Assembly: GCA_000989305.1 (NCBI GenBank)
Contig: LBTB01000002.1
Coordinates: 40,411-104,410, forward strand
Source of the DNA: Candidatus Shapirobacteria bacterium GW2011_GWF2_37_20
GTDB lineage: Bacteria > Patescibacteriota > Microgenomatia > UBA12405
Length of the DNA stretch: 64,000 nt
Direction of reading: 5' to 3'
Under the pieces are notes generated by a model. That model was not told the DNA's origin and searched no databases. It worked only from the letters and a program-made list of their open reading frames with translations. The position numbers and the translations under genes are program-made. Below are positions 818 to 29,847 of this stretch, one piece after another (within the stretch, counting starts at the first letter, position 1; the number at the start of each line of letters is the position of its first letter).

Positions 818-1362
818 TGCTAAAAAAACTTCTACCAATTATTGTTGTTGTCGTTAATGCTGTATTTTTAACCTATCTCTTAATTCCTACCCCCACCCTT
901 AAGCCTCTTCCCAATAGTGTCAAATCCACTGAGCCGGGAGACACAGTCCAACTAAAAAATGTTTCCGCCTATTACACTAATCTTTCCCGGACGGAAATTA
1001 TGAATTTCTACAGATCATCCTACACCAATCCTCTTGTAATCCGTTTAAATTATCCACCCGAATTAAGTAAGATAATTTTCCGTGACACCATCCAAAGTTA
1101 TTATCTGGAAGAGTTATCCATTCCCTTTAAAGAATCTCTCTATATCAATGGTTTTGAATGGGAAAATGACGTCTTTACCAAACCCGAAAAAAGAATAAAG
1201 AATAAATTGCTTTTTGAAGGTATTGAGTATCGCGCCAAAATTACCCTAAAAACCATCCCCACCTCGATTCCCGTCCGCCTGCTTAGCTTTTTTGGTACTG
1301 AGATTGCATTAATTGGTGTAAGTTACCTCTACTTAAAATTTTTAAAAAACCGTGGTCGTTAA
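817..1362 (+). CDS. Hypothetical membrane protein with N- and C-terminal TM helices
   Basis: 181-aa ORF coupled to the upstream gene (TAATG); hydrophobic ends. Confidence 0.7.
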   Translation: MLKKLLPIIVVVVNAVFLTYLLIPTPTLKPLPNSVKSTEPGDTVQLKNVSAYYTNLSRTEIMNFYRSSYTNPLVIRLNYPPELSKIIFRDTIQSYYLEELSIPFKESLYINGFEWENDVFTKPEKRIKNKLLFEGIEYRAKITLKTIPTSIPVRLLSFFGTEIALIGVSYLYLKFLKNRGR

Positions 1363-9747: not shown

Positions 9748-9765
9748 TACATGTTAAAATTATCC

Positions 9766-13603: not shown

Positions 13604-14212
13604 ATGAAAAAATATATCGGCCTCATTCTCATTTCCGCCTTATTCCTGTCAGCTTGTGGTAAAAAAACTACCACCAATATTGCTCCGTCTCCCACACCCA
13701 AACTAGTTGAACTCGCCCCCGAAGACCGACCTACCATCTCCCTGACCCCCAGAAGCGATGGTCACGAGCTAAGTCTAAAACTAGCCTCAATTTCAAACAA
13801 AATTTCTAAAATTGAGTATGAACTAACTTATTTGGCCGTCGACGGTAACCTTGAAATTGAAAAAGGTGCCAGTGGAATTATTGAATCAAAGGATTTTTCT
13901 TCCCAAAAAGCCGAAAGAAAAATACTCTTAGGTACCGAAAGTTGTACTAGCGGCTGTAAATACAAATACGACACCGGGATTACGGGTGGAAGCATAAATC
14001 TAATTTTTACCACCACAAATGGTCAAATCTCAACCTTTGACAGTCCCTTCATCCTCAAAACAGTCGCCGAGGTTAAAAAAGCGGGTAAACTTGTCTGGAC
14101 CGAAGAAGATTTTACTTACACTCCGACCAAATATACCGGCATCAGTTACTTCATCGCCCACAAAGACTTTAAGAATGGTGGCTACATGGTCACCAATAGT
14201 GGCGCTTTTTAA
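13604..14212 (+). CDS. Hypothetical lipoprotein
   Basis: Signal peptide with lipobox LSAC followed by PSPTP linker. Confidence 0.75.
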   Translation: MKKYIGLILISALFLSACGKKTTTNIAPSPTPKLVELAPEDRPTISLTPRSDGHELSLKLASISNKISKIEYELTYLAVDGNLEIEKGASGIIESKDFSSQKAERKILLGTESCTSGCKYKYDTGITGGSINLIFTTTNGQISTFDSPFILKTVAEVKKAGKLVWTEEDFTYTPTKYTGISYFIAHKDFKNGGYMVTNSGAF

Positions 14213-15078
14213 TGAATTACCACCAACCTGTCCTCCTAAACGAAGTTGTCAACCTTCTTGATCCACAAGTCGGACAAACATTTCTTGATGCCACCTTGGG
14301 TCACGGGGGTCACAGTATTGAATTATTAAAAAAAGGCGCTACTGTTTATGCCCTGGACACTGATTCTGAAAATCAAAAAATTGCCACAGACAGAATCGAG
14401 ACACTGAAATTATCAAAAAATTTTCACCCCCTAACAGGCAACTTTTCCAACACGCTTTCCCTCTGGAAAAAACACATCAAAAAACCTCTTGACGGTATTT
14501 TGCTTGACCTTGGCCTAAGTGTTAACCAACAGTCAGGGCAGGGGAGAGGATTTTCCTTTCACGATACTCTTTCTCTTGATATGCGGCTAAATCCTAAAAC
14601 CCAAAAACTAACTGCCGAAGAAATAATCAACACCTGGGACAAAGAACAACTTTACGAACTCTTTACCAAACTCGCCCAGGAAAAGTTGGCCAAACCCTTA
14701 ATTTTTGAAATTATTAGGGCCCGACAAATTCATCCGATAAAAAGCGGTAAAGAGCTTGGCAATATTATCGAAAATTATTATCAAAAAAAACACTATTCAA
14801 CCCGCCACAATCCTGCCACCAAAATATTCTTAGCTCTCCGCATTGCCGTCAATCACGAATTTGATAACTTAAAAAAAATCCTAGAATTAAGTTTAAAAAT
14901 CACTAAAACTGGTGGCGGGATCGCCGTCATTTCTTTTCATTCCGGAGAAGACCGCATCGTCAAACAATTTATAATAAAAAATAATCTTAGTTCACAAAAA
15001 ATTCTCCCAACCCATACTGAAGTTAAAAAAAACCCTCTTTCTCGCTCGGCTATTCTTAGATTTTACAAAAATAATTAA
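14212..15078 (+). CDS. rsmH: 16S rRNA m4C1402 methyltransferase
   Basis: HQPVLLNE, DATLGHGGHS, DLGLS, LDMR, ISFHSGEDRIVK, NPLSRSA. Confidence 0.95.
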   Translation: MNYHQPVLLNEVVNLLDPQVGQTFLDATLGHGGHSIELLKKGATVYALDTDSENQKIATDRIETLKLSKNFHPLTGNFSNTLSLWKKHIKKPLDGILLDLGLSVNQQSGQGRGFSFHDTLSLDMRLNPKTQKLTAEEIINTWDKEQLYELFTKLAQEKLAKPLIFEIIRARQIHPIKSGKELGNIIENYYQKKHYSTRHNPATKIFLALRIAVNHEFDNLKKILELSLKITKTGGGIAVISFHSGEDRIVKQFIIKNNLSSQKILPTHTEVKKNPLSRSAILRFYKNN

Positions 15079-15284
15079 TGTCAAACCGGATATTATTAGC
15101 AATTGCCCTGGGACTTCTTTTTTTTCAGTTATCATTTTCCGTTTATTATTCCGGAAAAATCGTTGAATACAATCAAAAATATTCTCAACTTGAAAAAATC
15201 TATGCCGAATTAAAAAATGAAAATCAAAACTTAGAAATAGAATTTGCCAATAAATTCGCCATCAATGGAAACAAATCGCCCTAA
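15078..15284 (+). CDS. ftsL: FtsL-like cell division protein
   Basis: 68 aa, one TM plus leucine heptad coiled coil, located between rsmH and the PBP. Confidence 0.6.
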   Translation: MSNRILLAIALGLLFFQLSFSVYYSGKIVEYNQKYSQLEKIYAELKNENQNLEIEFANKFAINGNKSP

Positions 15285-16836
15285 AATTATTCTGGTAACC
15301 ATCTATCTTTGCTTCATTTTTATTCTAGCCAAATTATTTTATTGGCAAATCATTAAGGGTCAGGAGTTACGCGACAGGGCAGTTTCTCAAATCTATAAAC
15401 TTGAAAAAATCCTTCCCCAACAAGGTCGTATTTTAAGCTCTGACGGCTATCCTCTTAGCCTTGATTATTCCTATTACGGTCTAGCCCTTTATAAACCAAA
15501 TTTTAAAAAAGAATTAACTGAAATAATTTCTGAGATAAACACCATTAAACCTCAATTTGCTACTGAAAATGCCAAAGCTTTGGACAAATTCAACAATCCT
15601 GCTCAAAAATGGATGGAATTTACCACCCAGTTTAATCGTGATGAAATGCTTAAATTGTCAAAAATTGCCGGCACCGATTTCACCTTAAAACAAAAACGAT
15701 ATTATCCAGAAAATGATTTAGCCTATCACCTAGTTTCTAATTTAGAAAAATATTATCGCCGCCAAATTTTTGGACAAATTGGTTTCACCCGTACTATTAT
15801 TGACGGCACTGGAGGCAATTTACTTACCCGAAAAAACTGGCAAAAAAGTGAAATCGACGGTCAGGATATTCACAGTTCTCTAAATCGACAAATCCAGCTA
15901 TTATCTGAAAATTCTCTCAAATATGGAGTCGAAAAATATCAAGCTGATTCTGCTTCTTTAATTATCATTAGACCGGAAAATGGAGAAATTATTGCCATGG
16001 CCAGTTTTGAAGCCAGCCCCTCAGCCCAATCCACAAAAATACCAAACATCGCCAACCTCTTTGAGCCAGGGTCAATCTTTAAACCGCTAATAGTGTCTGC
16101 CGCCCTCGACTCCAACAGTATCAATCAAAATTATATTTGCCCAAAATGTAATCAACCTAGAGTAATTGGTCAATACACTATTAATAACTGGAACGACGAA
16201 TTTCATCCGGATTCTACCCTTAAAGATATCATCAAAAACTCAGACAATATTGGTATGAGCTATATTATTTACGAACTGGGTCTTGATAAATTCTTAGACT
16301 ATTTTCATCGACTTAAACTTGATCAAAAAACCGGCGTTGAACTGACCGGAGAATCAATTTCGCCTCCCAAAAGCTATTGGTCAGACATCGATCTGGCCAC
16401 CGCTTCTTTTGGACAGGGTTTAGCTGTAAACCAACTTCAAATGATTCAAGCCTTCAACGCTATTGCCAATAATGGCCAATTGGTTAAGGTTCATTTCAAT
16501 CAACAAAACCAAATTGAATCAAGTCAGGTCTTTAGTCCCCAAAGCATTGCCATAATAAAAGACATTCTCCGGTACGCCGTCGACAATAGCCCTGTCGCCG
16601 CCTTAAAACCAAAAGAAATGGAAGTTTGTGCCAAAAGTGGCACAGCTCAGGTTGCCATTAAAGGCGAATACACCAACTCCGACACTATTGGCTCATATAT
16701 AGGCTTTTACCCCTGTATTAATCCCAAATTTACCATGATTGTCACTGTCAACAATCCCCGCTTGTCACAATGGGGTTCGTCCACCGCCGCCCCAATCTGG
16801 TTTGAATTAGCTCAAAATTTGGAGCCCTTGCTATAA
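15265..16836 (+). CDS. ftsI: Class B penicillin-binding protein (FtsI-like)
   Basis: TM anchor; SxxK (GSIFK), SxN (SDN), KSGTAQ; dcw position. Confidence 0.85.
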   Translation: METNRPKIILVTIYLCFIFILAKLFYWQIIKGQELRDRAVSQIYKLEKILPQQGRILSSDGYPLSLDYSYYGLALYKPNFKKELTEIISEINTIKPQFATENAKALDKFNNPAQKWMEFTTQFNRDEMLKLSKIAGTDFTLKQKRYYPENDLAYHLVSNLEKYYRRQIFGQIGFTRTIIDGTGGNLLTRKNWQKSEIDGQDIHSSLNRQIQLLSENSLKYGVEKYQADSASLIIIRPENGEIIAMASFEASPSAQSTKIPNIANLFEPGSIFKPLIVSAALDSNSINQNYICPKCNQPRVIGQYTINNWNDEFHPDSTLKDIIKNSDNIGMSYIIYELGLDKFLDYFHRLKLDQKTGVELTGESISPPKSYWSDIDLATASFGQGLAVNQLQMIQAFNAIANNGQLVKVHFNQQNQIESSQVFSPQSIAIIKDILRYAVDNSPVAALKPKEMEVCAKSGTAQVAIKGEYTNSDTIGSYIGFYPCINPKFTMIVTVNNPRLSQWGSSTAAPIWFELAQNLEPLL

Positions 16837-16851
16837 TTAAACATTCTATCT

Positions 16852-18105
16852 ATGATTCGCAAATTAAAAAATCTTTTATGGCACCTCCCACGAGGAATTT
16901 TTTGGAATCTATACTTTTCTTTCCCTAGTCGAAAATTAACCCTTATTGGCGTTACTGGTACGGACGGAAAAACAACCTGTTGTACTCTAATTCAAAAGCT
17001 TCTGGAAAATAGCGGTATCAAATGTGGCATTATCAGTACCATTAGTTCTCCCGGCCTACACACCACCAGTCCTGATCCAAAAATTCTTCAAAAAATATTT
17101 GACGATTACCAAAAACAAGGCTATACCCATGTCGTTTGCGAAGTTACCTCACACGCCCTGGACCAACATCGCTTCTGGGGTTGTCATTTTAAAAGTAGTT
17201 TAATTACCAATATTTCCCATGAGCATCTTGATTATCACAAAAATATAGACGCCTACATTGCCGCAAAGGCAAAATTATTTTCTCAATCCGATCTGGCCAT
17301 TCTCAATCGCGACGATCCTCATTATTTGGCCTTAAAAAAGCTGGTTAAAGTTCCCGTGACTACCTACGGCATTAAAAATAAATCTGATTTTACGGCCAAA
17401 AACATAAAAATTACTTCAGACTCTCTAAGTTTTAATATCAACCAACAAAAATTTGTCAGCGACAGTAACTATGAATATCAAATTTACAACATTCTTGCCT
17501 GTTACTCCATCTTTATTAAACTTAAACTCGACCCAAAAATATTTTCCGACACCATTACCAATTTCCCCGAAACTAAAGGACGACGCGAAATTATTGAAAA
17601 CAATCTTCACCTAAAAACCATCGTTGACTTTGCCCACACTCCAAACGCACTTTTTGTTACTCTCTCATCACTACGTCGGACCACTCAAGGAAAACTAATA
17701 GTTATCTTTGGTGCCACCGGTGGCCGGGATAAAACAAAAAGACCAATAATGGGAAAAAATGTCTCCCAATTGGCTGATGTTGCCATAATTACCGCCGACG
17801 ATACTAGAAATGAAAAAATCGAAGATATTAATCAGCAAATAATTTCCGGAATAGATCCTGGCAAATCTATTTTAGGCAACCCTTTAAATCCAGTTATTAC
17901 CAAAGCCCGCCGCTTTCATTATTTCAATGTTCCCAATCGACAAGATGCCTTTAACTTGGCCGTCAAAATCGCCAAAGCCGGTGATACCATCGTTGCTTGC
18001 GGAAAAGGTCACGAGACCTCTATTCTACACGAGAGCACTGAATATCCCTGGTCAGAAGCCGAAGCCTTTAGAACTGCTTTTCGCCTAAAAAACCAAAATG
18101 TATAA
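16852..18105 (+). CDS. murE: MurE-type Mur ligase (short N-terminus; DDTR specificity motif)
   Basis: GVTGTDGKTT, HTTSP, EVTSHALDQ, HEHLDYH, DFAHTP, GGRDKTKRPIMG, GKGHE. Confidence 0.9.
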   Translation: MIRKLKNLLWHLPRGIFWNLYFSFPSRKLTLIGVTGTDGKTTCCTLIQKLLENSGIKCGIISTISSPGLHTTSPDPKILQKIFDDYQKQGYTHVVCEVTSHALDQHRFWGCHFKSSLITNISHEHLDYHKNIDAYIAAKAKLFSQSDLAILNRDDPHYLALKKLVKVPVTTYGIKNKSDFTAKNIKITSDSLSFNINQQKFVSDSNYEYQIYNILACYSIFIKLKLDPKIFSDTITNFPETKGRREIIENNLHLKTIVDFAHTPNALFVTLSSLRRTTQGKLIVIFGATGGRDKTKRPIMGKNVSQLADVAIITADDTRNEKIEDINQQIISGIDPGKSILGNPLNPVITKARRFHYFNVPNRQDAFNLAVKIAKAGDTIVACGKGHETSILHESTEYPWSEAEAFRTAFRLKNQNV

Positions 18106-18697
18106 TCTAAAAAATAATTTGTCAATTGAAGAAAACTATTTGCAGGGTTATCTTCCCCAAAGAAATTCCCAAGACTCCTTTTATCAAGACGAAAACCATT
18201 CTTCTCGTTGTGATCTAAGCTTATTCCAATTATCTTCAGAGAACAGACGTATCATTAAAAAGACTGAAAATTTCACTTTTACCAAACTTCTTCTTTCAGA
18301 ATTTAACTACACCCCTCTTATTCAAAAACAAATTGTAGACTGGGTCAAAGAATTAGGATGGGATTTTCCAACCTCATCAATAAAAACCGTATTTACCAAT
18401 CATATTTTTAACTATCTATATATATGGTATGACCAAAACAAAGAAATTTGTGCCTACTCAATTTGTTATATTAATGAAAATTTTTCCCACATAGCCTATG
18501 TTTTTTATAATCCCAAATATACCCACAACGATTTGCCCATCCGACTTTCCCTGCAAGTAGTTACCGATAGTAACGACATGAAACTTAAATACTGTTATTT
18601 AGGCCGCTTTAACCCCAGTAATAAGCTTGGTTTTTATAAAAGAAACTTTCCGGGCTTCCAATATTTTACTCAGGGGACTTGGTTATCATATAATTAA
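18098..18697 (+). CDS. ATE/Bpt-like aminoacyl-tRNA-dependent transferase (GNAT fold)
   Basis: SRCDLSLFQLSSENRRIIKK, AYVFYNPKY, YCYLG, FYKRNF resemble the arginyl-tRNA-protein transferase C-terminal domain. Confidence 0.65.
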   Translation: MYNLKNNLSIEENYLQGYLPQRNSQDSFYQDENHSSRCDLSLFQLSSENRRIIKKTENFTFTKLLLSEFNYTPLIQKQIVDWVKELGWDFPTSSIKTVFTNHIFNYLYIWYDQNKEICAYSICYINENFSHIAYVFYNPKYTHNDLPIRLSLQVVTDSNDMKLKYCYLGRFNPSNKLGFYKRNFPGFQYFTQGTWLSYN

Positions 18698-18702
18698 CAA
18701 AT

Positions 18703-19992
18703 ATGCATATTTACCTTGTTGGAATTGCCGGTTCAATGACCGCCCCCTTGGCCATTGCCCTTCAAAAACAAGGCCACAAGGTCACCGGATCAGACCAAGA
18801 AAAAACCTTTCCTCCCTACCGGCAACAGCTAAAAAAAGCCAATATTTTAATTAATCAGACACCAATAAATTCTGAGATTGATTTGGCCATTATCGGCTCA
18901 TCATATTTATTCTTTAAAAAAACCAGAGAAGATTTCGAAGCCGTCAAAGCCCAAAAGATCCCCTACATTTCCGCCACTGAGTATCTTTCTAAAAACCTAA
19001 TCAAAGAAAATTCCATATTAGTTGCCGGCTCATATGGTAAAACAACCATTAGTGCCGCCCTTGCCCATCTTCTAAGCCAAGCCAAACTTAATCCTTCCTA
19101 CATGTTTGGTGGCCAAAGTCTTAATCGACTTGACTCCCTACACTTCTCCGACTCAACCTGGTCCGTCCTTGAAGCCGACGAATCAATCAACGGCCTCGAC
19201 ACCAAAGCAAAATTTCTTTATTATCCCGTTAAATATCTAATATTGACTAGTGCCCTCTGGGAACATAAAGAAAGCTATCGAAGCGATGCAAAAAACTTTG
19301 CCGCATTTTTAGAATTAGTAAAAAAAATACCCTCCGACGGTCTTCTGATATATAACCAGAACGATACTTCCATTTTGCCACTTCTTCCCCATGTCAAATG
19401 CCAAAAAATTGCTTACCAAAAAACTTCATTAAGCACTTCCTTAATCGGCAAATACAACCAAGAAAATCTTGGTGCCGTTGAAACCTTAGCTCAAAATATA
19501 AATATCTCTCCCCAAATTATTAAAAAATCCCTTTCCTCTTTTAAGGGAGTTAAAAGGCGTTTAGAACTTTGCGCTCAAGCAGGGGGGATAATATTTATCG
19601 ATGATTTTGCCCAATCAGCCAATAGAATCAAGGCGGCCCTTGAAGTCATCAAAAATACTTATCCCAAATCTCATCTTAAAGTTTTTTATGAAGCTCACGC
19701 CTCTTTTATGCAATATCGTTCTGGTGTAAAACAGCTCTGCTCTGTTTTTAATCTAGCTGATGAAACCGTCATTTTCCAACTCAAATTTAATTCAAAAATC
19801 AGCACCAAAGACAGAATTGTGGCCAAAGATTTCTTAGAAATTATTCCCCAAAGCCTTTACCTGCCCCTGGCAAGTGATGTCATAAAACATTACCGCAAAA
19901 CCCTTAAAAAGGGTGATATTTTAATTCATTTTAGTTCTGGTGGAGTTGAAGGGCAAAAAACTTTTCGAAAAATTATTAATTTATACAAATAA
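18703..19992 (+). CDS. mpl: MurC/Mpl-family ligase, closest in pattern to the murein peptide recycling ligase Mpl
   Basis: GHKVTGSDQEKTFPP, AGSYGKTT, EADE..KAKFLYY, FKGVKRRLE, DDFA; the GSD..xPP and KF.hY patterns are Mpl-like. Confidence 0.65.
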   Translation: MHIYLVGIAGSMTAPLAIALQKQGHKVTGSDQEKTFPPYRQQLKKANILINQTPINSEIDLAIIGSSYLFFKKTREDFEAVKAQKIPYISATEYLSKNLIKENSILVAGSYGKTTISAALAHLLSQAKLNPSYMFGGQSLNRLDSLHFSDSTWSVLEADESINGLDTKAKFLYYPVKYLILTSALWEHKESYRSDAKNFAAFLELVKKIPSDGLLIYNQNDTSILPLLPHVKCQKIAYQKTSLSTSLIGKYNQENLGAVETLAQNINISPQIIKKSLSSFKGVKRRLELCAQAGGIIFIDDFAQSANRIKAALEVIKNTYPKSHLKVFYEAHASFMQYRSGVKQLCSVFNLADETVIFQLKFNSKISTKDRIVAKDFLEIIPQSLYLPLASDVIKHYRKTLKKGDILIHFSSGGVEGQKTFRKIINLYK

Positions 19993-19998
19993 GAAATA

Positions 19999-21327
19999 AT
20001 GTCACGATACATAATCAACGGCGGTCAAAGCCTGAGCGGTGAAGTTTCTATCCGTGGTGCTAAAAATGCCGGCTATAAACAAATTATCGCCTCACTTCTC
20101 TCAGATAAGCCCAGTCACATCAACAACATTCCTCAAATTTCCGACGTTAAAATTACTCAAAGTATTGCCGAAAGTTTAGGCTCTCAAATAACCAGAACCG
20201 GTGAACACAGTTTAACTATTCATACTCCAAAATTTACCTCTTCAACAGTACCTCACGGTACCGGAGAAAAATCCCGAACCTCCTTTATTTTTGCCGCCCC
20301 GCTTTTAAGTCGAACTGGAATGGCCACCATTCCCACTCCTGGTGGAGACAAGCTCGGTGCCCGACCCTTGGATAGGCTTTTCGACTGCTTTTCCACCATG
20401 GGTATCAACACCGAACTCAAAGACGATCTAATGATTTTTAAAACCGATGGCATAAAAGCTACCCATTATGTTTTTAACAAACCCAGCCATACTGTCACTG
20501 AAGTTGTTGTTATGACCGCCGCCTTAGCCACCGGACAAAGTATTTTTGAAAATACTGCTCTTGAACCAGAAATTGACGATTTAATTTCCATGCTCAATTC
20601 TATGGGGGCCAAAATTCAGCGTTCTTCTCAAAATCCAAAAACTATCATCGTTGACGGAGTTCCTTCATTGTCTGGCACCAGCCATCAGGTAATTTCTGAT
20701 AGAAACGAAGCCATCACTTTTGCCTGTGCCGCATTGGCCACAAAAGGCTCTGTTAATATTCTCAGAACAGATCCCAAAATTATCAAAACCTTTTTAGATA
20801 CTGTTGAAAAAATGGGTGCCCAAATTGATAGGGGTAGTGATGAAGTTGCCGTCTCTTGGGTTAAACAATTAAAAGCGGTTGATATCGAAACCGGTCCCGA
20901 ACCAGGTTTTATGACCGACTGGCAGGCAATCTTTTCAGTTCTCTTAACTCAAGCCATCGGTGTTAGTAGTATCATCGAAAAAGTTTATCCTTCACGCTTT
21001 CAACACCTTCAATACCTGGAAAAAATGGGGGTTAAAACAGTATTGTTTAATCCTAAAATAGCCGACCCTTCCGCTTATTATGAATTTAACCCCGATACTG
21101 ATAAGCCCGAATATCTTCACGGCGTCAGAATATACGGACCAGTTAAGCTAAAACCTTCTCAATTTAGTATTAGTGATCTTAGGGCTGGTGCCTGTATAAC
21201 TTTGGCCGCCCTTACCGCTGAAGGTGAAAGTATTATCGATAATGTTGAATTTATTGAAAGAGGTTATGAAAAATTAGCCGAACGACTTTGCTCTTTGGGT
21301 GCTAATATAAAATATATCAAAACATGA
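19999..21327 (+). CDS. murA: UDP-N-acetylglucosamine 1-carboxyvinyltransferase
   Basis: GAKNA, PGGDKLGARP, EPEIDDL, PGFMTDWQ, DLRAGA, IERGYE. Confidence 0.95.
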   Translation: MSRYIINGGQSLSGEVSIRGAKNAGYKQIIASLLSDKPSHINNIPQISDVKITQSIAESLGSQITRTGEHSLTIHTPKFTSSTVPHGTGEKSRTSFIFAAPLLSRTGMATIPTPGGDKLGARPLDRLFDCFSTMGINTELKDDLMIFKTDGIKATHYVFNKPSHTVTEVVVMTAALATGQSIFENTALEPEIDDLISMLNSMGAKIQRSSQNPKTIIVDGVPSLSGTSHQVISDRNEAITFACAALATKGSVNILRTDPKIIKTFLDTVEKMGAQIDRGSDEVAVSWVKQLKAVDIETGPEPGFMTDWQAIFSVLLTQAIGVSSIIEKVYPSRFQHLQYLEKMGVKTVLFNPKIADPSAYYEFNPDTDKPEYLHGVRIYGPVKLKPSQFSISDLRAGACITLAALTAEGESIIDNVEFIERGYEKLAERLCSLGANIKYIKT

Positions 21328-22358
21328 TTCACTTATATCTTGGCCTTCTATTATTCTCCTTTCTGGCTACCAGCATTTTAGTCGTACCCTACATTAATCT
21401 TCTTTACCGACTTAAATTTCAGCGTCAAAAACAGTCCACCCTTGATTTTCAAAATCAAAAGACCCCCATCTTTGACAAATTCCACTCATTAAAAAGTGGT
21501 ACACCCGTTGGCGGTGGACTTCTTATCATTGTCACTGTTGTCATTCTTTTTGCTTTCCTGTTTCCCATGTTAAAAATGTCCCGTCTCTTTATTTCCAGTA
21601 ACTACCACCTAATCAATGAGTTGATCGTTATCTTTTTTACCTTCATAAGTTTCGGTCTTCTTGGTCTATATGACGACATTCTAAAGTTTTTTAACTTTAA
21701 AAAGTCCGGATTTTTTGGCCTAAGAATGAAATACAAATTAATTCTTCAGTTACTCTTGGCCACCGTCATTTCCAGCCTAATCTATTTTCAGCTGGGAATC
21801 AATTTTATCTATCTTCCTTTTGTAGGTGCTGTCAGTCTTGGATTATTCTTTATTCCAATTTCCACCACAATCATTGTTGCTTTTGCCAACTTTTTTAATA
21901 TCACCGATGGTTTAGACGGCTTGGCCTGTGGCACTTTGATGATTTCTCTTTTCGCTTTCTGGATTCTAGCTGGCACCTCCCTTGATACCCCCATCTCCCT
22001 CTTTTTATCCCTCTGGATCGGTTCTCTTATTGCCTTTCTTTACTTTAATGTCTACCCGGCTCGTATCTGGCTGGGAGACGTTGGTTCATTATCTTTTGGG
22101 GCCACCTTTGCTGTCATCGCTCTGCTTCTAGGAAAGGTTGTTCCTCTTTTTATTGTCGGGGCTCCTTTTATTATCGAAGGTATGACCAGTGCCATTCAAA
22201 TCTTTAGTAAAATCTATCTTCACAAAAAAATATTTCCCGCCGCTCCAATCCACCTCACTCTTCAAAAAAATGGCTGGGAAGAACCCAAAATTGTTTTTAG
22301 AGCTTGGCTAGCTGCTATTATTTTAGCTATTTTTGGACTATGGCTGGGACTAAATTAA
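21324..22358 (+). CDS. mraY: Phospho-N-acetylmuramoyl-pentapeptide transferase
   Basis: KSGTPVGGG, GLYDD, NITDGLDGLA, PARIWLGDVGS, APIH, WEEPKIV. Confidence 0.95.
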   Translation: MIHLYLGLLLFSFLATSILVVPYINLLYRLKFQRQKQSTLDFQNQKTPIFDKFHSLKSGTPVGGGLLIIVTVVILFAFLFPMLKMSRLFISSNYHLINELIVIFFTFISFGLLGLYDDILKFFNFKKSGFFGLRMKYKLILQLLLATVISSLIYFQLGINFIYLPFVGAVSLGLFFIPISTTIIVAFANFFNITDGLDGLACGTLMISLFAFWILAGTSLDTPISLFLSLWIGSLIAFLYFNVYPARIWLGDVGSLSFGATFAVIALLLGKVVPLFIVGAPFIIEGMTSAIQIFSKIYLHKKIFPAAPIHLTLQKNGWEEPKIVFRAWLAAIILAIFGLWLGLN

Positions 22359-22879
22359 GTGAATTACGTCAGGAAATTTTAAAATATATTGGCATCCCGT
22401 ACCATACCAATATCCCTAAGGTAATTTCTACTGAAAATGTTTTACTTGGTAAGGGCAATGCCAGGGAGATTGCCCTAAAAACAATTGAATTAGCCAATAA
22501 AAATAACCTAAAAATTCTAAATTTAAGTCCCCAACAAATCTATAATTTTCAAAAAAAGAATAAAATTGGCATTGATTGCTCCGGTCTGGCCTGTCATCTT
22601 CTTAATTTTTACTTTAATACCAAACTAAATGTTCGGCGCACCTCCGCCGACATGCTTAGCTCCGCCCCCTTATCAAAACAAATTGACATTTCCGACACCC
22701 AAACCGCCGACCTAATCCGACAAAAAGATGGTCACCACCTTCTCTTTGTTATCGAAAAAATTGGTGACAAAGTTGTCTATGTTGATTCTTCACGAAAGGG
22801 CAGGGGAGTACGCTATGGCGAATTCGACATCACTGACAAAAACTTCAAACACAACGGAGTTTTCAGATTAAATAGATAG
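22340..22879 (+). CDS. NlpC/P60-like cysteine peptidase
   Basis: YIGIPY and GIDCSG nucleophile motif, then ADLI...GHH; no signal peptide; ATG 22340 overlaps the mraY end. Confidence 0.7.
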   Translation: MAGTKLSELRQEILKYIGIPYHTNIPKVISTENVLLGKGNAREIALKTIELANKNNLKILNLSPQQIYNFQKKNKIGIDCSGLACHLLNFYFNTKLNVRRTSADMLSSAPLSKQIDISDTQTADLIRQKDGHHLLFVIEKIGDKVVYVDSSRKGRGVRYGEFDITDKNFKHNGVFRLNR

Positions 22880-22881
22880 GT

Positions 22882-23190
22882 TTATTTCTTTTCCCAGCGA
22901 TCCTTGTCTCTTTTTTTGTATTTATCCATTATTCTGTCAAAATGTTTGTCCAAATCAATATTAAGTGAATTAGCCAAGCATGCCAGAGTGTAGATGATGT
23001 CTGCCATTTCATCACCCAATTCCTGGGTTTCTTCAGATGGCTTTTTCTTTTTTGAACCAAAAAGATGATTTAACTCTCTTGCCGTCTCACCAACTTCTTC
23101 AACTAATCGAGCTAAAATCTCTAAAGGTTTAAAATAACCAACCTTGTACTGAGAAATCCATTCATCAACTTCTTTTTGAATCCTTTTCAT
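22882..23190 (-). CDS. MazG-like nucleotide pyrophosphohydrolase (YpjD-like)
   Basis: ARLVEEVGETARELNH and ELGDEMAD acidic motifs; KRDKDRW C-terminus. Confidence 0.88.
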   Translation of the reverse strand: MKRIQKEVDEWISQYKVGYFKPLEILARLVEEVGETARELNHLFGSKKKKPSEETQELGDEMADIIYTLACLANSLNIDLDKHFDRIMDKYKKRDKDRWEKK

Positions 23191-23354
23191 TATTTTTCCT
23201 CAATCAACTCCCGGTACCGAAGAGGGGTGGTTGAGATAATTTCCACTTCAGTTCCACATTCCTGACATTCTAAAATATCTCCAAGCATTGGGCTTTCACC
23301 TTTAATTTCCGCCTGGCAATCAGGGCAAAGAACTTTATTATTAGTATCTGGCAT
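23190..23354 (-). CDS. LysW-like small zinc-ribbon carrier protein (54 aa; not in ORF track)
   Basis: Hand translation MPDTNNKVLCPDCQAEIKGESPMLGDILECQECGTEVEIISTTPLRYRELIEEK; two CxxC pairs with LysW spacing; TAATG coupling to the MazG-like gene. Confidence 0.8.
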   Translation of the reverse strand: MPDTNNKVLCPDCQAEIKGESPMLGDILECQECGTEVEIISTTPLRYRELIEEK

Positions 23355-23388
23355 ATAATTTAGCTAAAATATAACTAATCACTATTAT

Positions 23389-24186
23389 ATGACACCACTA
23401 AGTAAAATCGATAATCTATATTTTAAACGTGAAGATTTAAATCCCACCGGCTCCGCCAAAGACAGAGCTCTACCCTTCCAGATTCAAAACTTACTAAATA
23501 ACGGCTTTAAATCCGCCGTTATTTCTTCAACCGGCAATGCCGCCATTTCCGCCACCTATTATTGTCAAAAAGAAAATATTCCCCTAACCATTTTTGTTTC
23601 TCCAAAAATCAATATCAACAAATTATCCCTTATAAAAGGCAATATCATCAAGTCTCTCAAACCAATCAGCGATGCCATCAAGTTTTCTAAAGCCAACCAT
23701 GCCTATCTTTTACGACAATCAACTGACCCCTCAGCTCAAGTAGGCTATGCTGAAATAGCCAAAGAAATATTAATTCAATTACCACAAATTACCAGCCTTT
23801 TTATTCCCGTTGGTAGTGGTACTACCTTACTGGGGATTGCCAAAGTCTTACCCAACAACGTTAAAATCTTTGCCGCCCAACCAGCCAGTAATCCAACTAT
23901 CTCTAGTGTTTTTGATCAGGATTACACACCAGAAACTCAAACCATTACCGATGCTCTTAGCGTAAAATATTTACCTCTTAAAACCGAAGTGATAAATGCA
24001 ATTAAATCACGCTATTCTTTTGGTATTGTTGTCAAAAATACTGACGCTATCAAATATTTAGATTTTGTTAAACAATTTGAAACCTCACCAGAGTCAGCCC
24101 TGACTCTAGCCGCCTACCATCAAATAAAAAATAAACCCGAAGTGGGGGATTATCCTGTTATTCTTTTAACCGGCACAAAACGCTAA
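23389..24186 (+). CDS. Fold-type II PLP-dependent enzyme (threonine synthase/cysteine synthase-like, minimal)
   Basis: KREDLNPTGSAKDR (PLP lysine), SSTGNAAIS, PVGSGTT, LLTG. Confidence 0.85.
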   Translation: MTPLSKIDNLYFKREDLNPTGSAKDRALPFQIQNLLNNGFKSAVISSTGNAAISATYYCQKENIPLTIFVSPKININKLSLIKGNIIKSLKPISDAIKFSKANHAYLLRQSTDPSAQVGYAEIAKEILIQLPQITSLFIPVGSGTTLLGIAKVLPNNVKIFAAQPASNPTISSVFDQDYTPETQTITDALSVKYLPLKTEVINAIKSRYSFGIVVKNTDAIKYLDFVKQFETSPESALTLAAYHQIKNKPEVGDYPVILLTGTKR

Positions 24187-25277: not shown

Positions 25278-25279
25278 AA

Positions 25280-26410
25280 ATGAAAATTTCCCCCCTGCTT
25301 ACTTACTCCACCCTTCTCTCTTTTATCGGTTTGTTATTTATTTCTTCCTCCTCCCTTTTTGAAGCCGAAAAAACTATTGGCGACCCATATTTTTTCCTTA
25401 AAAAACAAATGCTTTGGCTTGTTGTTGGTTTAATTAGCCTCTTTATTACCTCTAAAATTAAACTAGATACTTTTGTCAACAATTCTTTTCGCCTCTATTT
25501 ATTCTCTGCTATTTTATTACTCCTGGTATTAATTCCTGGTATCGGTGCACAAGTTCTTGGCGCCAGACGTCAAATTGATTTAGGCTTTTTTAATTTTCAG
25601 CCCTCTGAACTATTTAAGTTTGCCTCAGTAATTTTCTTTTCCTTTCTTTTTTCTTTAAAGGAAAAAAGAAATTTAAAAAACTTAACCCTATATCTCGGAC
25701 CACCTTTAATTTTAATCATTCTTGAGCCAAACCTCAGTACTACTGTCATGATTGCCGCTATTGTCATTTCTATCTACTATCTTTCCGGTGCTGAAATTAT
25801 AAGCCTTTTCTCGGCCGGTTTTGTCATCACCCTTCTAAGTTTCTTATTAATTCTAGTCTCACCCTATCGTCTGGCCCGCGTTAAAACTCTTCTCAACCAG
25901 CAAAGTAATCAAGACCTGAGTTACCACAGCGAACAAATAGTACTTTCCTTAGCCTCTGGCGGGTGGTCAGGTAAAGGCTTTGCCAATTCCGACCATAAAT
26001 ATCAATTTATCCCTAAAATAAGCACCGATTCGATCCTTGCTATTGTTGGTGAAGAAACTGGCTTTGTCGGCTTAACTTTAATTAGCTATCTATTTTTACT
26101 TTTAATTTCCCGATTAATTCATATCTCTCAAGTGGCCACCGATACTTATGAAAAACTTCTCGTCAGTGGTATTGCCTGTTGGATAGCCTATCAAGGTTTA
26201 ATTAATTTTGCCGCCATTGTTGCCTTAATCCCGCTGACCGGAATTCCTTTTCCCTTCATTGCCTATGGAGGCTCCTCCCTAATCACCCTATTTTGCGCCT
26301 TGGGACTAGCTATAAATATAGAAAATAAATATTCTAAATTGCTATACTCAAAGGATGACCGAAACCAGAAAGATAATCATCACCGGCACTCATATCACCC
26401 CCGCCATTGA
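25280..26410 (+). CDS. ftsW: SEDS peptidoglycan polymerase FtsW
   Basis: GARR, FQPSELFK, EPNLST, PYRLAR, GEETGF, PLTGIPFPFIAYGGSS; upstream of murG. Confidence 0.9.
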   Translation: MKISPLLTYSTLLSFIGLLFISSSSLFEAEKTIGDPYFFLKKQMLWLVVGLISLFITSKIKLDTFVNNSFRLYLFSAILLLLVLIPGIGAQVLGARRQIDLGFFNFQPSELFKFASVIFFSFLFSLKEKRNLKNLTLYLGPPLILIILEPNLSTTVMIAAIVISIYYLSGAEIISLFSAGFVITLLSFLLILVSPYRLARVKTLLNQQSNQDLSYHSEQIVLSLASGGWSGKGFANSDHKYQFIPKISTDSILAIVGEETGFVGLTLISYLFLLLISRLIHISQVATDTYEKLLVSGIACWIAYQGLINFAAIVALIPLTGIPFPFIAYGGSSLITLFCALGLAINIENKYSKLLYSKDDRNQKDNHHRHSYHPRH

Positions 26411-27434
26411 GTTGATCCACCAACTTCAAAGTGACCGCGATATCAACTGGGAAATATTCTACATAGGCAGACGTTTCAACTCCAGTGTCCAGAGAGAAGC
26501 TTCGATAGAATCAAAAATAATTCCTCAAAATAACGTAAAATTTTACGGCATCTTGTGTGGCAAATACGACCGTCGTTGGCTACCAAACACCATTTCTGGT
26601 CTGCCTCAAATGTTATCGGGCTTCAAAAGCGCCCACCAAATCCTCAAAAAAATAAAACCTCATTTAGTCGTCTCTTTTGGCGGATATGTTTCAGTTCCGG
26701 TTATTATTTCTGCCTGGCTCCAAAATCTTCCCTCAATTACTCACGAGCAAACCCACACTCTAAGTCTGTCAACCAAAATCAACGCTTTGTTTTGTCGTCA
26801 CATCGCCCTATCCTTCCCCGTTACCAAATCATCCGACAAATATCTGGTTACCGGCAATCTTTTGAGACGGGAAATTTTTAATTTTCATTCCCAATATTTT
26901 GAAAAGCAAAAATTTGACCTAAAAAAGTTTCCTCTGATTTATCTTACCGCCGGCAATCAGGGTTCACATCGTCTAAATTTAGTCTTAAAAAAATTATTAC
27001 CTTCTCTTTGCAAGAGATTTACCATTATTCACCAAAGCGGATCAAAAGATTTTAATAGATATAAAAAACTCTCTTTAAAATTTCCTAATTATTTGGTCAA
27101 AAACTATATTGATTCCGTCGACATTGGTTGGATTTTTCATCATTCAAAACTAATCGTCAGTCGCGCCGGCGCCAACACCACCCAAGAAATTGCCGTTTTG
27201 GGTCTTAATTCCGTCATCATCCCCCTCTTAATAAGCCAACAAAATGAACAATTTAAAAACGCTCTTTGGTTACAAGAAAAACTACCTAAAAATACCATAA
27301 TCATTAAAGAATCGGAACTTACGGCAAAATCACTTGGAGACTCTATCAACATTCTTGCTTCAAAAAAGAAAGCACCCTCTTCTGTTTTACCCTCTCCAAA
27401 TCTTAAACTATTAAAACTAATCAAAAAGCTCTAA
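26355..27434 (+). CDS. murG: Lipid II GlcNAc transferase
   Basis: TGTHITPA, SFGGYVSVP, HEQ, TGN, GNQGS, SRAGANT, EQFKNA. Confidence 0.92.
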   Translation: MTETRKIIITGTHITPAIELIHQLQSDRDINWEIFYIGRRFNSSVQREASIESKIIPQNNVKFYGILCGKYDRRWLPNTISGLPQMLSGFKSAHQILKKIKPHLVVSFGGYVSVPVIISAWLQNLPSITHEQTHTLSLSTKINALFCRHIALSFPVTKSSDKYLVTGNLLRREIFNFHSQYFEKQKFDLKKFPLIYLTAGNQGSHRLNLVLKKLLPSLCKRFTIIHQSGSKDFNRYKKLSLKFPNYLVKNYIDSVDIGWIFHHSKLIVSRAGANTTQEIAVLGLNSVIIPLLISQQNEQFKNALWLQEKLPKNTIIIKESELTAKSLGDSINILASKKKAPSSVLPSPNLKLLKLIKKL

Positions 27435-27443
27435 AATTAAAAC

Positions 27444-28697
27444 ATGCAACATTTTAAAACCATTAATTGTCTTGACATCGGCACTTCGAAAATAACCTCC
27501 ATTATCGGTCAGTATCCTGAAAACGAAACCAAGATAAATGTCGTTGGTGTTGCCTCTGTTCCGGCAGTCGGTTTTAAAAAAGGTCAAATAATCAATCTGG
27601 AACAAGCCAGCAAAACTATTACCGAATGTATCGAATCTTCCGAAAGAATGGCTGGTTTTCAAATTAATCACGCCTTTATTTCCCTCACCGCTCCCCACTT
27701 TGAATCATTTAATTCCAAGGGTGTAACTGCTATTTCCGGAGCTAGCGGAGAAATATCAAGTGTAGATATTGATCGGGCCATTGAGGCCGCCAAGGCAATC
27801 TCACTGCCAGCTAATAAAGAAATTGTTCATGTAATTCCCCGTCTTTTTACCGTTGATGGTCAGGAAGGCGTCATCGACCCCATTGGAATGAGTGGTGTTC
27901 GACTAGAGGTTGAAACTCATTTAATTTTAGCCTCAACCCCGGCTTTAAAGAATCTCAACAAGTGCCTCGAAGAAATTGGTATAAAGGTCGATGCTCTTGC
28001 CTATTCCGGTTTAACTTCCGCCAAAGCTTGTTTAAGCGAAACAGAAACAGAACTTGGAGTAGCCCTTGTCGATATTGGAGGTAGCAACACCACCATTACC
28101 ATTTTCCAGGAGTCCTCACCAGTCTTTTCCGGAGTAATTCCTCTTGGTGCCAACAACATTACCAACGATTTGGCCATAGGTCTTAGACTCCCGCTCCAAG
28201 AATCAGAAAAAATTAAAATCAAACTGAAAGCTTATGCCGACAAGAAAGGCTTTGAAGACGAAATTGAATTAACTCATCTTGGCATCCTAAGTGAGGACAA
28301 GAAAAAAATCTCATTTTCCACCACTGTTAACGGCATTATCAAAGCCAGACTTGAAGAAATTTTTGGATTTATCTTTGACCAAATAGAAGACAATGGTTTT
28401 AAAAATTCTATTCCCGCCGGAATTGTTCTAACCGGTGGCGGCTCTCAAACAATTTTGGCTAAAGAAGTCTGCGCTGATGTTATCCCTTTGCCAGTCAGAA
28501 TAGCCGATCCTCCACGTCTCGGAGGCTTGGTTGACGATATAACCAACCCCGCCTTTTCCAGCACCATCGGTACTATTTTATATTTTCAAACTCATAAAAT
28601 TAATCCAAAAAACAACTCTTCAAACAAAAAAATGAAGGTTTCTTTTGATGGAATATTCGGTCGTCTTAAAGGTTTTATCGAACCTCTTTTACCTTAA
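27444..28697 (+). CDS. ftsA: Cell division protein FtsA
   Basis: LDIGTSKI, DPIGMSGVRLEV, VDIGG, ITNDLAIGL, GIVLTGGG. Confidence 0.95.
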   Translation: MQHFKTINCLDIGTSKITSIIGQYPENETKINVVGVASVPAVGFKKGQIINLEQASKTITECIESSERMAGFQINHAFISLTAPHFESFNSKGVTAISGASGEISSVDIDRAIEAAKAISLPANKEIVHVIPRLFTVDGQEGVIDPIGMSGVRLEVETHLILASTPALKNLNKCLEEIGIKVDALAYSGLTSAKACLSETETELGVALVDIGGSNTTITIFQESSPVFSGVIPLGANNITNDLAIGLRLPLQESEKIKIKLKAYADKKGFEDEIELTHLGILSEDKKKISFSTTVNGIIKARLEEIFGFIFDQIEDNGFKNSIPAGIVLTGGGSQTILAKEVCADVIPLPVRIADPPRLGGLVDDITNPAFSSTIGTILYFQTHKINPKNNSSNKKMKVSFDGIFGRLKGFIEPLLP

Positions 28698-28698
28698 C

Positions 28699-29847
28699 AT
28701 GGGCTTAATTAAAACACTTACAGGTCAATTCGCAAAAATAAAAGTCATTGGTGTCGGTGGCGGCGGTAACAATGCCGTAAACTCCATGATTTCTCAAGAA
28801 GAAATCAAGGGTGTTGATTTTATTGCTGTCAATACTGATTCTCAGGTTCTTTTAAACTCCCTGGCTCCGATCAAAATTCAAATTGGAGAAAAAATTACCA
28901 AGGGTCTTGGGGCCGGTGGTGACCCAAATGTTGGCCAACAAGCAGCTGAAGAATCCCGGGAACGAATTAAGGAAGTGCTTGAAGGTACTGACATGCTTTT
29001 TATCACCGGCGGTATGGGTGGTGGTACTTGTACTGGTGCCGCTCCCATCATTGCTGAAATTGCCAAAAAAGAACTAAATATCCTGACAATTGCCGTCGTC
29101 ACCAAACCCTTCTTGTTCGAAGGAACCCGGCGCATGAGCAAAGCCGAGGAAGGCTTGTCCCGTCTTCGACAAAATGTCGACACCCTGATTGTAATCCCAA
29201 ACCAGCGGGTTATGGAGGTAGTTAACTCTCAGGCTACTCTGCTTGAAGCCTTCAAAATTGCTGATTCTGTTTTAACCAAAGGTACCAAAGCCATTGCCGA
29301 TTTAATCACCACTTCCGGCCTGATCAACCTTGATTTTGCTGATATCAAATCTGTCATGAGCAATGCCGGTTCTGCCCTCATGGGAGTCGGGGAAGCTGAA
29401 GGAAAAAATAAGGCCCAAGACGCCGTTGAAACTGCCATTGATTCTCCGCTCGTTGAAGTTAATATTGACGGGGCCAGGGGAGTCCTTATCAATATCACCG
29501 GAGGTCCCGACATTACTATGGCCGAAATTGAAGAATCTGCCAAAACTATCACCTCTCACGTTGCTCCCGACGCTAATGTAATTTTTGGAGCTTCGATTGA
29601 CCCGGAACTCAAAGATAAAGTTAAAATCACCATCATTGCTACCGGTTTCGATCCAAGTAAAAATCTAACCCATTCTTCCTACAAAAAACCAGTTACCATG
29701 CAAAAACCCTTAATCGATGACGATTCTGAACCTCAAAAAGAACTTGATCCTAAACTTCAAAATTTGATGGCCGATCAGGAAATTCCTGCCGGAGTTGAAA
29801 TCGAAGACGAATTCGACATCCCTGCCTTTTTACGAAAAAATAGTTAA
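28699..29847 (+). CDS. ftsZ: Cell division protein FtsZ
   Basis: GVGGGGNNAV, GMGGGTCTG tubulin signature, DIPAFLRK tail; start ATG 28699. Confidence 0.97.
   Translation: MGLIKTLTGQFAKIKVIGVGGGGNNAVNSMISQEEIKGVDFIAVNTDSQVLLNSLAPIKIQIGEKITKGLGAGGDPNVGQQAAEESRERIKEVLEGTDMLFITGGMGGGTCTGAAPIIAEIAKKELNILTIAVVTKPFLFEGTRRMSKAEEGLSRLRQNVDTLIVIPNQRVMEVVNSQATLLEAFKIADSVLTKGTKAIADLITTSGLINLDFADIKSVMSNAGSALMGVGEAEGKNKAQDAVETAIDSPLVEVNIDGARGVLINITGGPDITMAEIEESAKTITSHVAPDANVIFGASIDPELKDKVKITIIATGFDPSKNLTHSSYKKPVTMQKPLIDDDSEPQKELDPKLQNLMADQEIPAGVEIEDEFDIPAFLRKNS

What the first reader, a model, noticed from the sequence alone, without database searches (positions are those of the whole stretch)
14212..29847. 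Rewired dcw cluster: candidate peptidoglycan salvage and remodelling system
Seen: the order is rsmH-ftsL-PBP-murE-[ATE-like]-[Mpl-like]-murA-mraY-[NlpC/P60]-[mazG-like, lysW-like on minus]-[PLP enzyme]-[ATP-grasp]-ftsW-murG-ftsA-ftsZ, with most genes overlapping or a few nt apart. mraZ, canonical murC, murD, murF, murB, ddl and ftsQ are absent from the cluster. Known: canonical dcw clusters carry murF between murE and mraY, and murD between mraY and ftsW. Inference: the non-canonical genes sit in those slots and may build a non-standard stem peptide, partly from scavenged host fragments, using tRNA-dependent, ATP-grasp and PLP chemistry.
Basis: partly seen in the sequence, partly recalled or inferred. 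Interest (0 to 1): 0.85.

Follow-up and report, generated by a model that had tools for sequence, protein, structure and literature searches.

The report
Carrier-protein route replacing MurC and MurD
This tiny uncultured bacterium and many relatives lack the textbook enzymes that add the first two amino acids of the cell-wall peptide and carry six tightly linked genes in their place, which likely build that alanine-glutamate unit on a small lysine-tailed carrier protein by an undescribed route.

Summary
The gene order is real (Ca. Shapirobacteria). murB, murF and ddl lie elsewhere in the genome; murC, murD, murI and pgeF were not found. Six inserted genes are conserved and mutually exclusive with canonical murD/murI: an ATE-like tRNA transferase, an Mpl-type ligase, NlpC/P60, a LysW-like carrier ending in Lys, a fold-II PLP enzyme and an ATP-grasp. 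mazG is incidental. Across Patescibacteria the carrier/PLP/ATP-grasp/NlpC cassette occurs in two forms: with ATE+Mpl (this window), or with normal MurC plus a variant MurD. That MurD keeps the D-Glu alpha-carboxylate residues and has lost the gamma-carboxylate loop. Gene fusions link all the enzymes, and a fold model docks the carrier tail in the ATP-grasp site. Best reading (inferred, untested): Glu is gamma-tethered to the carrier lysine, inverted to D, alanylated from tRNA, ligated to UDP-MurNAc and released, giving the normal MurE substrate. That the genes replace the MurC/MurD/MurI steps: about 0.85. This exact chemistry: about 0.5. Host-peptide salvage is a minor rival. I found no description in ten literature searches. 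The scan noted the same cluster before on other genomes (unchecked AI notes).

The parts
14212..16836 (+). rsmH, short ftsL-like gene and class B PBP: ordinary start of the dcw cluster
16852..18105 (+). MurE lacking the N-terminal domain; substrate motifs as in relatives that have canonical murD
18098..18697 (+). ATE/Bpt-like aminoacyl-tRNA transferase, in the slot where canonical relatives have pgeF; predicted to add Ala to an acidic acceptor
   Evidence: ATE_C; model pLDDT 95; best fold human ATE1, Z 16.2, rmsd 2.9 over 196 residues; HHalign to Bpt 98.6%; pgeF slot
18703..19992 (+). Mpl-type UDP-MurNAc:peptide ligase in the murC slot
   Evidence: motifs; clade sister to E. coli Mpl; fused to ATE in L185 and to NlpC in L168 (86)
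19999..22358 (+). murA and mraY
22340..22879 (+). NlpC/P60 cysteine hydrolase with no evident signal peptide (likely start at the conserved Met, 22340); predicted releasing enzyme
   Evidence: Cys92 in 51 of 51, His145 in 50 of 51 (numbering from the ORF at 22304); fused to ATP-grasp, Mpl-type ligase or variant MurD elsewhere
22882..23190 (-). MazG-like gene; lineage-specific insertion, not part of the system
   Evidence: seen in 1 of 80 related loci
23190..23354 (-). 54-aa LysW-like zinc-ribbon protein ending in Glu-Glu-Lys; predicted carrier
   Evidence: ends in Lys in 73 of 73 (74) and 56 of 57 (122); tail 5 residues shorter than LysW; complex model
23389..24186 (+). Fold-II PLP enzyme derived from threonine synthase; predicted to invert the tethered amino acid
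   Evidence: PLP Lys24 in 59 of 59 (93); closest structures are ThrC; fused to the ATP-grasp in P0096 and L170
24186..25277 (+). ATP-grasp ligase of the biotin-carboxylase/PurK/PGM1/BesA structural class; predicted carrier loader
   Evidence: E269, N271 and R273 conserved; complex with carrier 0.64 against 0.00 for the best control
25280..29847 (+). ftsW, murG, ftsA, ftsZ; no ftsQ-sized gene in this genome

Best explanation
[quoted passage not shown] Shown: position, conservation, mutual exclusion with canonical murD/murI, fusions and residue patterns. Inferred steps: (1) the ATP-grasp activates the gamma-carboxyl of L-Glu and joins it to the epsilon-amine of the carrier's terminal Lys; (2) the PLP enzyme inverts the free alpha-centre to D; (3) the ATE-like enzyme transfers Ala from Ala-tRNA to the free alpha-amine; (4) the Mpl-type ligase joins the Ala-D-Glu unit to UDP-MurNAc; (5) NlpC/P60 cuts the gamma-D-Glu-Lys isopeptide and frees the carrier (4 and 5 may run in the other order); MurE, MurF/Ddl, MraY and MurG then act as usual. 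In the second form, MurC and the variant MurD do steps 3 and 4.
For: Slot: canonical relatives read murE-(pgeF)-murC...mraY-(murI)-murD-ftsW; here ATE-Mpl and NlpC-carrier-PLP-grasp fill those places. Exclusion: among 201 class genomes, 0 of 34 with the strong ATP-grasp have murD over cut-off, against 141 of the other 167. In the family, ATE is in 73 of 81 and murD in 2 of 81; those two (genus g10) have lost ATE, Mpl, carrier, PLP and grasp from dcw. MurI over cut-off: 0 of 51 cassette genomes, 17 of 29 others. Two forms: of 58 loci with carrier or PLP, 35 have ATE+Mpl, 17 have variant MurD, none has both. Variant MurD keeps T321 and K348 (120 of 120) and has lost R425 (0 of 120) and S415 (at most 2 of 120); canonical relatives keep S415 and R425 in 21 of 21. 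T321/K348 bind the alpha- and S415/F422 the gamma-carboxylate (PMC9780078). Fusions ATE-Mpl, Mpl-NlpC, NlpC-MurD variant, grasp-NlpC and PLP-grasp. The terminal Lys is the only conserved tail residue (EEK, EGK, VQK and others). Complex model: score 0.64, best control 0.00, runs agree in at least 87% of contacts, partner pLDDT at least 77; carrier residues 49-53 touch grasp residues 44-49 and 144-149; the mark was reached by 116 of 157 solved and 2 of 215 mismatched pairs. ATE/Bpt enzymes need a free alpha-amine and an acidic group (PMC9351520); invariant R22 and Y29 match klAte1 R80 and Y87 by spacing and by fold range. Mpl accepts L-Ala-D-Glu, slowly (PMC3060825). MurE is unchanged.
Against: The PLP enzyme is closest to threonine synthase, not to a racemase; its Ser/Thr at the racemase-base position is shared with ThrC and is not diagnostic. 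Lys54 itself is not among the confident interface residues, and solved LysX/ArgX-LysW complexes may bias the model. NlpC stays in all 3 g10 genomes that lost the rest. 12 of 29 canonical-murD genomes also lack MurI, so MurI loss needs no replacement. This genome has no Alr and has a peptide-binding protein, so it probably imports D-amino acids anyway. Glu and Ala as substrates are inferred from the slot. G085 has ATE-Mpl and a grasp but no carrier or PLP gene in the stretches read. The tree has one Mpl reference and is the quick search. Kin are not independent.
Confidence: 0.5

Rival explanations
1. Same replacement and carrier, but the position-2 residue is not plain D-Glu: the PLP enzyme builds or alters it by beta/gamma-replacement or elimination, so the stem peptide is non-standard.
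For: PLP enzyme descends from ThrC; the variant MurD has lost the gamma-carboxylate loop (91, 133); a six-gene route is costly if one racemase would do.
Against: MurE motifs are unchanged; alpha-carboxylate residues are kept; genus g10 swapped back to canonical murC/murD while keeping the same MurE; ThrC phosphate-binding positions are mostly lost (residue list recalled).
Confidence: 0.22
2. Salvage: imported host stem peptides are trimmed by NlpC/P60 to L-Ala-D-Glu and ligated by the Mpl-type enzyme; the other genes edit or store fragments.
For: Mpl is a recycling ligase and takes the dipeptide; NlpC is fused to the ligase in L168; one peptide-binding protein in the genome; an Amidase_3 gene between murE and ATE in L025; no Alr here.
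Against: Gives no role to ATE, carrier, PLP or ATP-grasp; ATE is fused to Mpl in L185; the second form uses canonical MurC with a single-residue ligase; no Amidase_3 in this genome; among all loci read, an amidase gene sat in the cluster only in L025; Mpl's Glu-Pro-Arg-Ser-Asn-Thr motif is not kept.
Confidence: 0.14
3. The carrier is loaded LysX/RimK-style at its C-terminal carboxyl, and the cassette supplies another building block (third residue, D-Ala or a cross-bridge).
For: LysW homology; tail docks in the grasp site; ATE fold is shared with Fem transferases.
Against: An amine-blocked residue could not bind PLP or act as acceptor; no kinase or reductase in the cassette; Alr co-occurs with it in 7 of 23 ATE genomes and 6 of 11 variant-MurD genomes, against 57 of 201 overall; the exclusion is with murD/murI.
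Confidence: 0.11
4. The inserted genes are unrelated passengers and these lineages simply lost murC/murD.
For: mazG shows that passengers do enter this interval; G009 has neither system.
Against: Conserved in several classes, fused to Mur ligases, and exclusive with murD.
Confidence: 0.03

Closest known systems
Canonical Mur pathway (MurC, MurD, MurI, PgeF) of the dcw cluster
   Same: Same slots; MurA, B, E, F, Ddl, MraY and MurG are kept; likely the same product
   Different: No free-amino-acid ligation at positions 1 and 2, no MurI, no PgeF
LysW/ArgW amino-group carrier systems (LysW with LysX/ArgX, LysZ/Y/J, LysK)
   Same: Zinc-ribbon acidic carrier with a loader, a modifier and a hydrolase; works like it
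   Different: Tail ends in Lys rather than EDWGE and is 5 residues shorter; loader is not RimK-class; no kinase, reductase or aminotransferase; predicted to tether the acyl rather than the amino end
MurD2/MurL route of Xanthomonas (PMC5808125, passages read)
   Same: [quoted passage not shown]
   Different: MurL epimerises the nucleotide-bound peptide with ATP; no carrier, PLP or tRNA
Mpl murein peptide ligase (PMC3060825, passages read)
   Same: YPP motif, insertion after EADE, SxGG end; sister group in the tree
   Different: Sits in the murC slot of genomes without MurC; lacks EPRSNT; tied to a tRNA transferase
ATE1/Bpt N-degron transferases and Fem transferases
   Same: Fold and acceptor-pocket residues of ATE1/Bpt; tRNA-dependent wall chemistry as in Fem
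   Different: No zinc cysteines; in a cell-wall operon; would start the stem rather than tag proteins or add cross-bridges

Membership tests
Canonical Mur pathway | MurD over family cut-off | tested here: not met
   2 of 81 in the family (17)
Canonical Mur pathway | MurC with the amino-acid-binding Tyr346 and Arg380 (H. influenzae numbering) | tested here: not met
   Tyr in 1 of 25 and Arg in 2 of 25 ATE-linked ligases, against 11 of 12 and 12 of 12 canonical relatives
Canonical Mur pathway | MurA, MurB, MurE, MurF-type ligase, Ddl, MraY, MurG present | tested here: met
   (MurF-type below the TIGR01143 cut-off, short CPR form)
LysW/ArgW carrier systems | Zinc-ribbon carrier fold | tested here: met
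   PF21344 E 1e-10 (4); LysW structures E 2e-10 (126)
LysW/ArgW carrier systems | C-terminal Glu (EDWGE tail; motif recalled) | tested here: not met
   ends in Lys in 73 of 73 (74) and 56 of 57 (122)
LysW/ArgW carrier systems | RimK-class loader with LysZ/Y/J/K in the cluster | tested here: not met
   no LysX/RimK hit for the grasp; neighbours are PLP fold II and NlpC
LysW/ArgW carrier systems | Covalent loading of the carrier | not testable with these tools
   complex model supports binding only
Mpl | Mpl-type N-terminal and middle-domain motifs; descent from Mpl | tested here: met
   (Y/F)PP in 25 of 25 against 1 of 12 MurC; clade with E. coli Mpl, SH-aLRT 98 (117)
Mpl | C-domain EPRSNT motif and score over the TIGR01081 cut-off | tested here: not met
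   147 bits against 388.7 (5); motif absent
Threonine synthase | Phosphate-binding Thr88, Asn154, Arg160, Asn187 (list recalled) | tested here: not met
   aligned positions are Ala, Gln/Pro, variable and Ser (92, 93)
Fold-II Ser/Asp racemases | Racemase activity; hydroxyl base in the SSGN loop | tested here: inconclusive
   Ser in 42 and Thr in 17 of 59 (93), but ThrC also has Thr there
ATE1/Bpt transferases | Fold and acidic-acceptor pocket Arg/Tyr | tested here: met
   residue match by spacing and range, not by a residue-level superposition
MurD2/MurL | MurL orthologue with an L-Glu-adding MurD | not tested
   MurL was not searched; no MurD of any kind in this genome

The most novel reading that the evidence does not exclude
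Several classes of Patescibacteria start the peptidoglycan stem by a third route: glutamate is tethered through its gamma-carboxyl to the lysine of a repurposed LysW-fold carrier, inverted there by a PLP enzyme, alanylated from tRNA by an N-degron-type transferase and ligated as a unit by a former recycling enzyme. It would be the first acyl-carrier-based and tRNA-initiated peptidoglycan stem synthesis.
Probability: 0.5. Interest if true: 0.95.

Novelty: categorically new. Interest (0 to 1): 0.86.

Why it matters
MurC and MurD are treated as near-universal. A replacement spread over many Patescibacteria families would add a new route to a core pathway, a new class of carrier protein, a small-molecule role for bacterial ATE-like enzymes and a biosynthetic role for Mpl and NlpC/P60. 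It would also explain apparently incomplete wall pathways in these genomes, and bears on how much wall material these symbionts make rather than take from hosts. All six proteins look soluble and small, so the claim is testable in vitro and by complementation in laboratory E. coli.

Tried and rejected
mazG as a member: seen in 1 of 80 loci. PLP enzyme as an Alr substitute: Alr co-occurs with it. Ligase as an ordinary divergent MurC: my first reading from HMM scores, dropped after motifs and tree. Assembly gap as the cause of missing murD: 79 of 81 family genomes lack it, including single-contig G026. The genome's RimK-type genes on C5 as the carrier's loader: unlinked; not tested further. Sequence searches of the PDB gave nothing useful for ATE, the ATP-grasp or NlpC. 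Fold searches of the ATP-grasp gave the class only, with no close characterised enzyme. No relative in viral contigs. Plasmid searches gave only distant grasp relatives at 23-30% identity. The careful tree did not finish; the quick tree is quoted, and 14 near-identical family rows were left out. One weak ATE hit with stop codons (G090) was dropped from the count of 24. Distribution outside Patescibacteria was not tested: named hits were all CPR labels, but most hits are unnamed. Literature: no description in searches; only listings were seen for most hits, and only 10 of 479 were listed. Subscription papers and supplements were not seen.
Full report
Observation. The window is G000:C2:40411-104410 of an 810-kb, 96%-complete genome. 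Named records with the same cluster are mostly Ca. Shapirobacteria. murB, a short murF and ddl are on contig C4. The genome has three Mur ligases only: MurE, MurF and the ligase at 18703-19992. No canonical murD, Asp/Glu racemase, alr, pgeF, D-amino-acid transaminase family (118), mraZ or Amidase_3 (121) was found. So the gap is specific: the first two ligation steps and the D-Glu supply.

Conservation. In 80 loci chosen by the ATP-grasp, 67 of the 68 that span mraY..ftsW read NlpC, carrier (opposite strand), PLP enzyme, ATP-grasp, and 54 of the 56 that span murE..mraY read ATE then the Mpl-type ligase; mazG appears once. Other families of the class keep murB, murA, ddl and murF inside the same cluster. 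Canonical relatives read murE-(pgeF)-murC-murB-murA-murF-mraY-(murI)-murD-ftsW. ATE plus Mpl therefore replace pgeF plus murC, and the four-gene cassette replaces murD. pgeF was seen in 10 loci, always with canonical MurC and never with ATE.

Exclusion. In 201 class genomes, 23 have the ATE-like gene (a 24th hit with stop codons was dropped) and 34 have the ATP-grasp at E below 1e-50. None of the 34 has murD over cut-off; 141 of the other 167 do (unpublished G141 is one of the 141). In the family, ATE is in 73 of 81 genomes and murD in 2 of 81 (17). Those two belong to genus g10, whose dcw cluster has lost ATE, Mpl, carrier, PLP and grasp but kept NlpC. MurI passes its cut-off in 0 of 51 cassette genomes and 17 of 29 others. 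Four of the 51 were classed by score or neighbouring hits, not by reading the locus; G085 showed no carrier or PLP gene; G290, counted among the others, may carry a variant MurD. Alr is patchy and co-occurs with the cassette (7 of 23, 6 of 11, 57 of 201). Kin are not independent, so I give no test statistic.

Two forms. The ATP-grasp is in 44 of 330 further phylum genomes. I read 40 of those loci: 24 are cassette loci, 11 belong to a paralogous clade in a RimK-like operon, and 5 have another context. Over 58 loci with carrier or PLP gene, 35 have ATE+Mpl, 17 have a variant MurD, 2 have the Mpl-type ligase with no separate ATE (one is an ATE-Mpl fusion), 4 show neither or are cut, and none has both. 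Variant-MurD genomes whose dcw I read keep canonical MurC and pgeF. In other classes the variant can pass the TIGR01087 cut-off, but the hit is then the cassette gene or looks like it, and each such genome has only one hit over cut-off. Named variant-MurD hits are Ca. Gottesmanbacteria and other CPR labels.

Residues. Variant MurD keeps all catalytic residues and T321 and K348 in 120 of 120 homologues, but has lost R425 (0 of 120) and S415 (at most 2 of 120); 21 of 21 canonical relatives keep both. In E. coli MurD, T321/K348 bind the alpha- and S415/F422 the gamma-carboxylate of D-Glu (PMC9780078, passages). This is what a glutamate blocked at its gamma end would select. The window's ligase has Mpl's (Y/F)PP motif (25 of 25, against 1 of 12 MurC), an insertion after EADE and an SSGG-type end. 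It mostly lacks the MurC amino-acid residues Tyr346 and Arg380 (1 and 2 of 25; residue roles from PMC3060825, passages). Some members from other classes keep an Arg there. 27 such ligases form one clade (SH-aLRT 99) sister to E. coli Mpl in a quick tree with one Mpl reference. Mpl ligates L-Ala-D-Glu at 1.4 per minute against 260 for the tripeptide. MurE motifs do not differ between 30 ATE-form, 5 variant-form, 3 g10 and 10 canonical sequences.

Carrier and loader. The 54-aa protein matches LysW up to LysW residue 48 and ends one residue later in Lys, five short of LysW. The Lys is kept in 73 of 73 (74) and 56 of 57 (the two sets overlap), while the residues before it vary (EEK, EGK, VQK, IQK). 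The ATP-grasp folds with pLDDT 94 (48) like PurK, biotin carboxylase, BesA and PGM1-type ligases (best Z 24.9, rmsd 3.9, 315 residues; LysX Z 17.1). A complex model scored 0.64 against 0.00 for the best of 3 controls, with runs agreeing in at least 87% of contacts and partner pLDDT at least 77; the mark was reached by 116 of 157 solved and 2 of 215 mismatched pairs. Carrier residues 49-53 touch the loop at 144-149; Lys54 is not named; solved LysX-LysW complexes may have helped.

Other enzymes. The ATE-like protein folds (pLDDT 95) closest to human ATE1 (Z 16.2, rmsd 2.9, 196 residues) and aligns to bacterial Bpt at 98.6% (116). Ate1 and Bpt recognise a free alpha-amine and an acidic group through Arg80 and neighbouring tyrosines (PMC9351520, section 7 and passages); invariant R22 and Y29 fit by spacing and range. 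The PLP enzyme keeps its Lys in 59 of 59, is closest to threonine synthase, and lacks most ThrC phosphate-binding positions (list recalled). Fold-II racemases are among its PDB hits, but racemase activity is an inference. NlpC keeps Cys and His (93); that this family cuts gamma-D-Glu bonds is established knowledge, recalled.

Fusions. Grasp-NlpC in 4 and PLP-grasp in 1 of 8 long homologues scanned; ATE-Mpl in L185, Mpl-NlpC in L168, PLP-grasp in L170 (86); NlpC-variant MurD in 3 of 120 (133). These join all the enzymes in one pathway.

Mechanism. PLP, the tRNA transferase and MurD all need a free alpha-amine; the carrier offers a conserved Lys; the variant MurD has given up the gamma-carboxylate; NlpC/P60 suits a gamma-glutamyl bond. 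The simplest scheme is gamma-Glu on the carrier Lys, inversion, addition of Ala and UDP-MurNAc, then release. I put 0.85 on replacement of the MurC/MurD/MurI steps and 0.5 on this chemistry. Against it: nothing was assayed, NlpC persists in g10, 12 of 29 canonical genomes also lack MurI, and this genome has no Alr but has a peptide-binding protein, so import is possible.

Comparison and novelty. It works like a LysW system but fails the C-terminal Glu and partner tests. It reaches the same end as MurD2/MurL (PMC5808125, passages) by other means. Ten searches gave no description. A dcw study left CPR out (PMC8871954, passages), and a 2026 review only notes that wall genes are frequent (PMC13293708, passages). 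Subscription papers and supplements were not seen. The scan's earlier notes on other genomes describe the same cluster and a carrier-linked D-Glu idea. They are unchecked and are not support; my reading of the replacement was set down before I opened them, and my checkpoint with the carrier scheme came before look-ups.

Verdict. A real, conserved, apparently undescribed replacement for the start of stem-peptide synthesis; categorically new if the chemistry holds; interest 0.86.

Noticed in passing
window 36029-37363: NADP glutamate dehydrogenase, a possible L-Glu source in an otherwise reduced genome.
   Followed up: no
G000:C5:43686-47002 (L003): Three tandem RimK-type ATP-grasp genes (TIGR02291-like plus two TIGR00768-like), unlinked to the carrier.
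   Followed up: partly
L039-L043, L175, L176, L178, L180, L184, L188, L189, L194, L195, L202, L205: A paralogous clade of the same ATP-grasp sits in the TIGR02291 RimK-like operon, without carrier or PLP gene, in genomes with canonical murD.
   Followed up: partly
L206, L207 (Rhizobium plasmids): Distant grasp relatives lie in a PLP enzyme, 'biotin carboxylase', C45 peptidase, peptide ABC transporter cluster, once beside nifH; the same ligase-PLP-peptidase logic, apparently uncharacterised.
   Followed up: no
L017, L018, L077 (genus g10): Cassette lost except NlpC. Two genomes regained murC/murD elsewhere; G009 has neither system, and its cluster also lacks PBP and ftsW.
   Followed up: partly
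L006:11651-12022 and most family loci: A gene of about 125 aa between murG and ftsA, possibly a short ftsQ, has no Pfam hit and is missing from this genome.
   Followed up: partly
G000:C2:105527-106399: Single family-5 peptide-binding protein just outside the window.
   Followed up: no
window 1-64000: GC skew is negative in every 2-kb block of the strand that carries most genes; a paper on strand disparity in a Microgenomates genome appeared in a listing (PMC7143001; listing only).
   Followed up: no
window 1352-11706: Surface polysaccharide cluster (glycosyltransferases, sugar-phosphate transferase, DUF4012) upstream of recO-glyS.
   Followed up: no
L086-L165: Many records titled 'uncultured Gammaproteobacteria', and one 'Methanoperedens', carry this cluster at 43-73% identity; the titles are probably wrong.
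   Followed up: no
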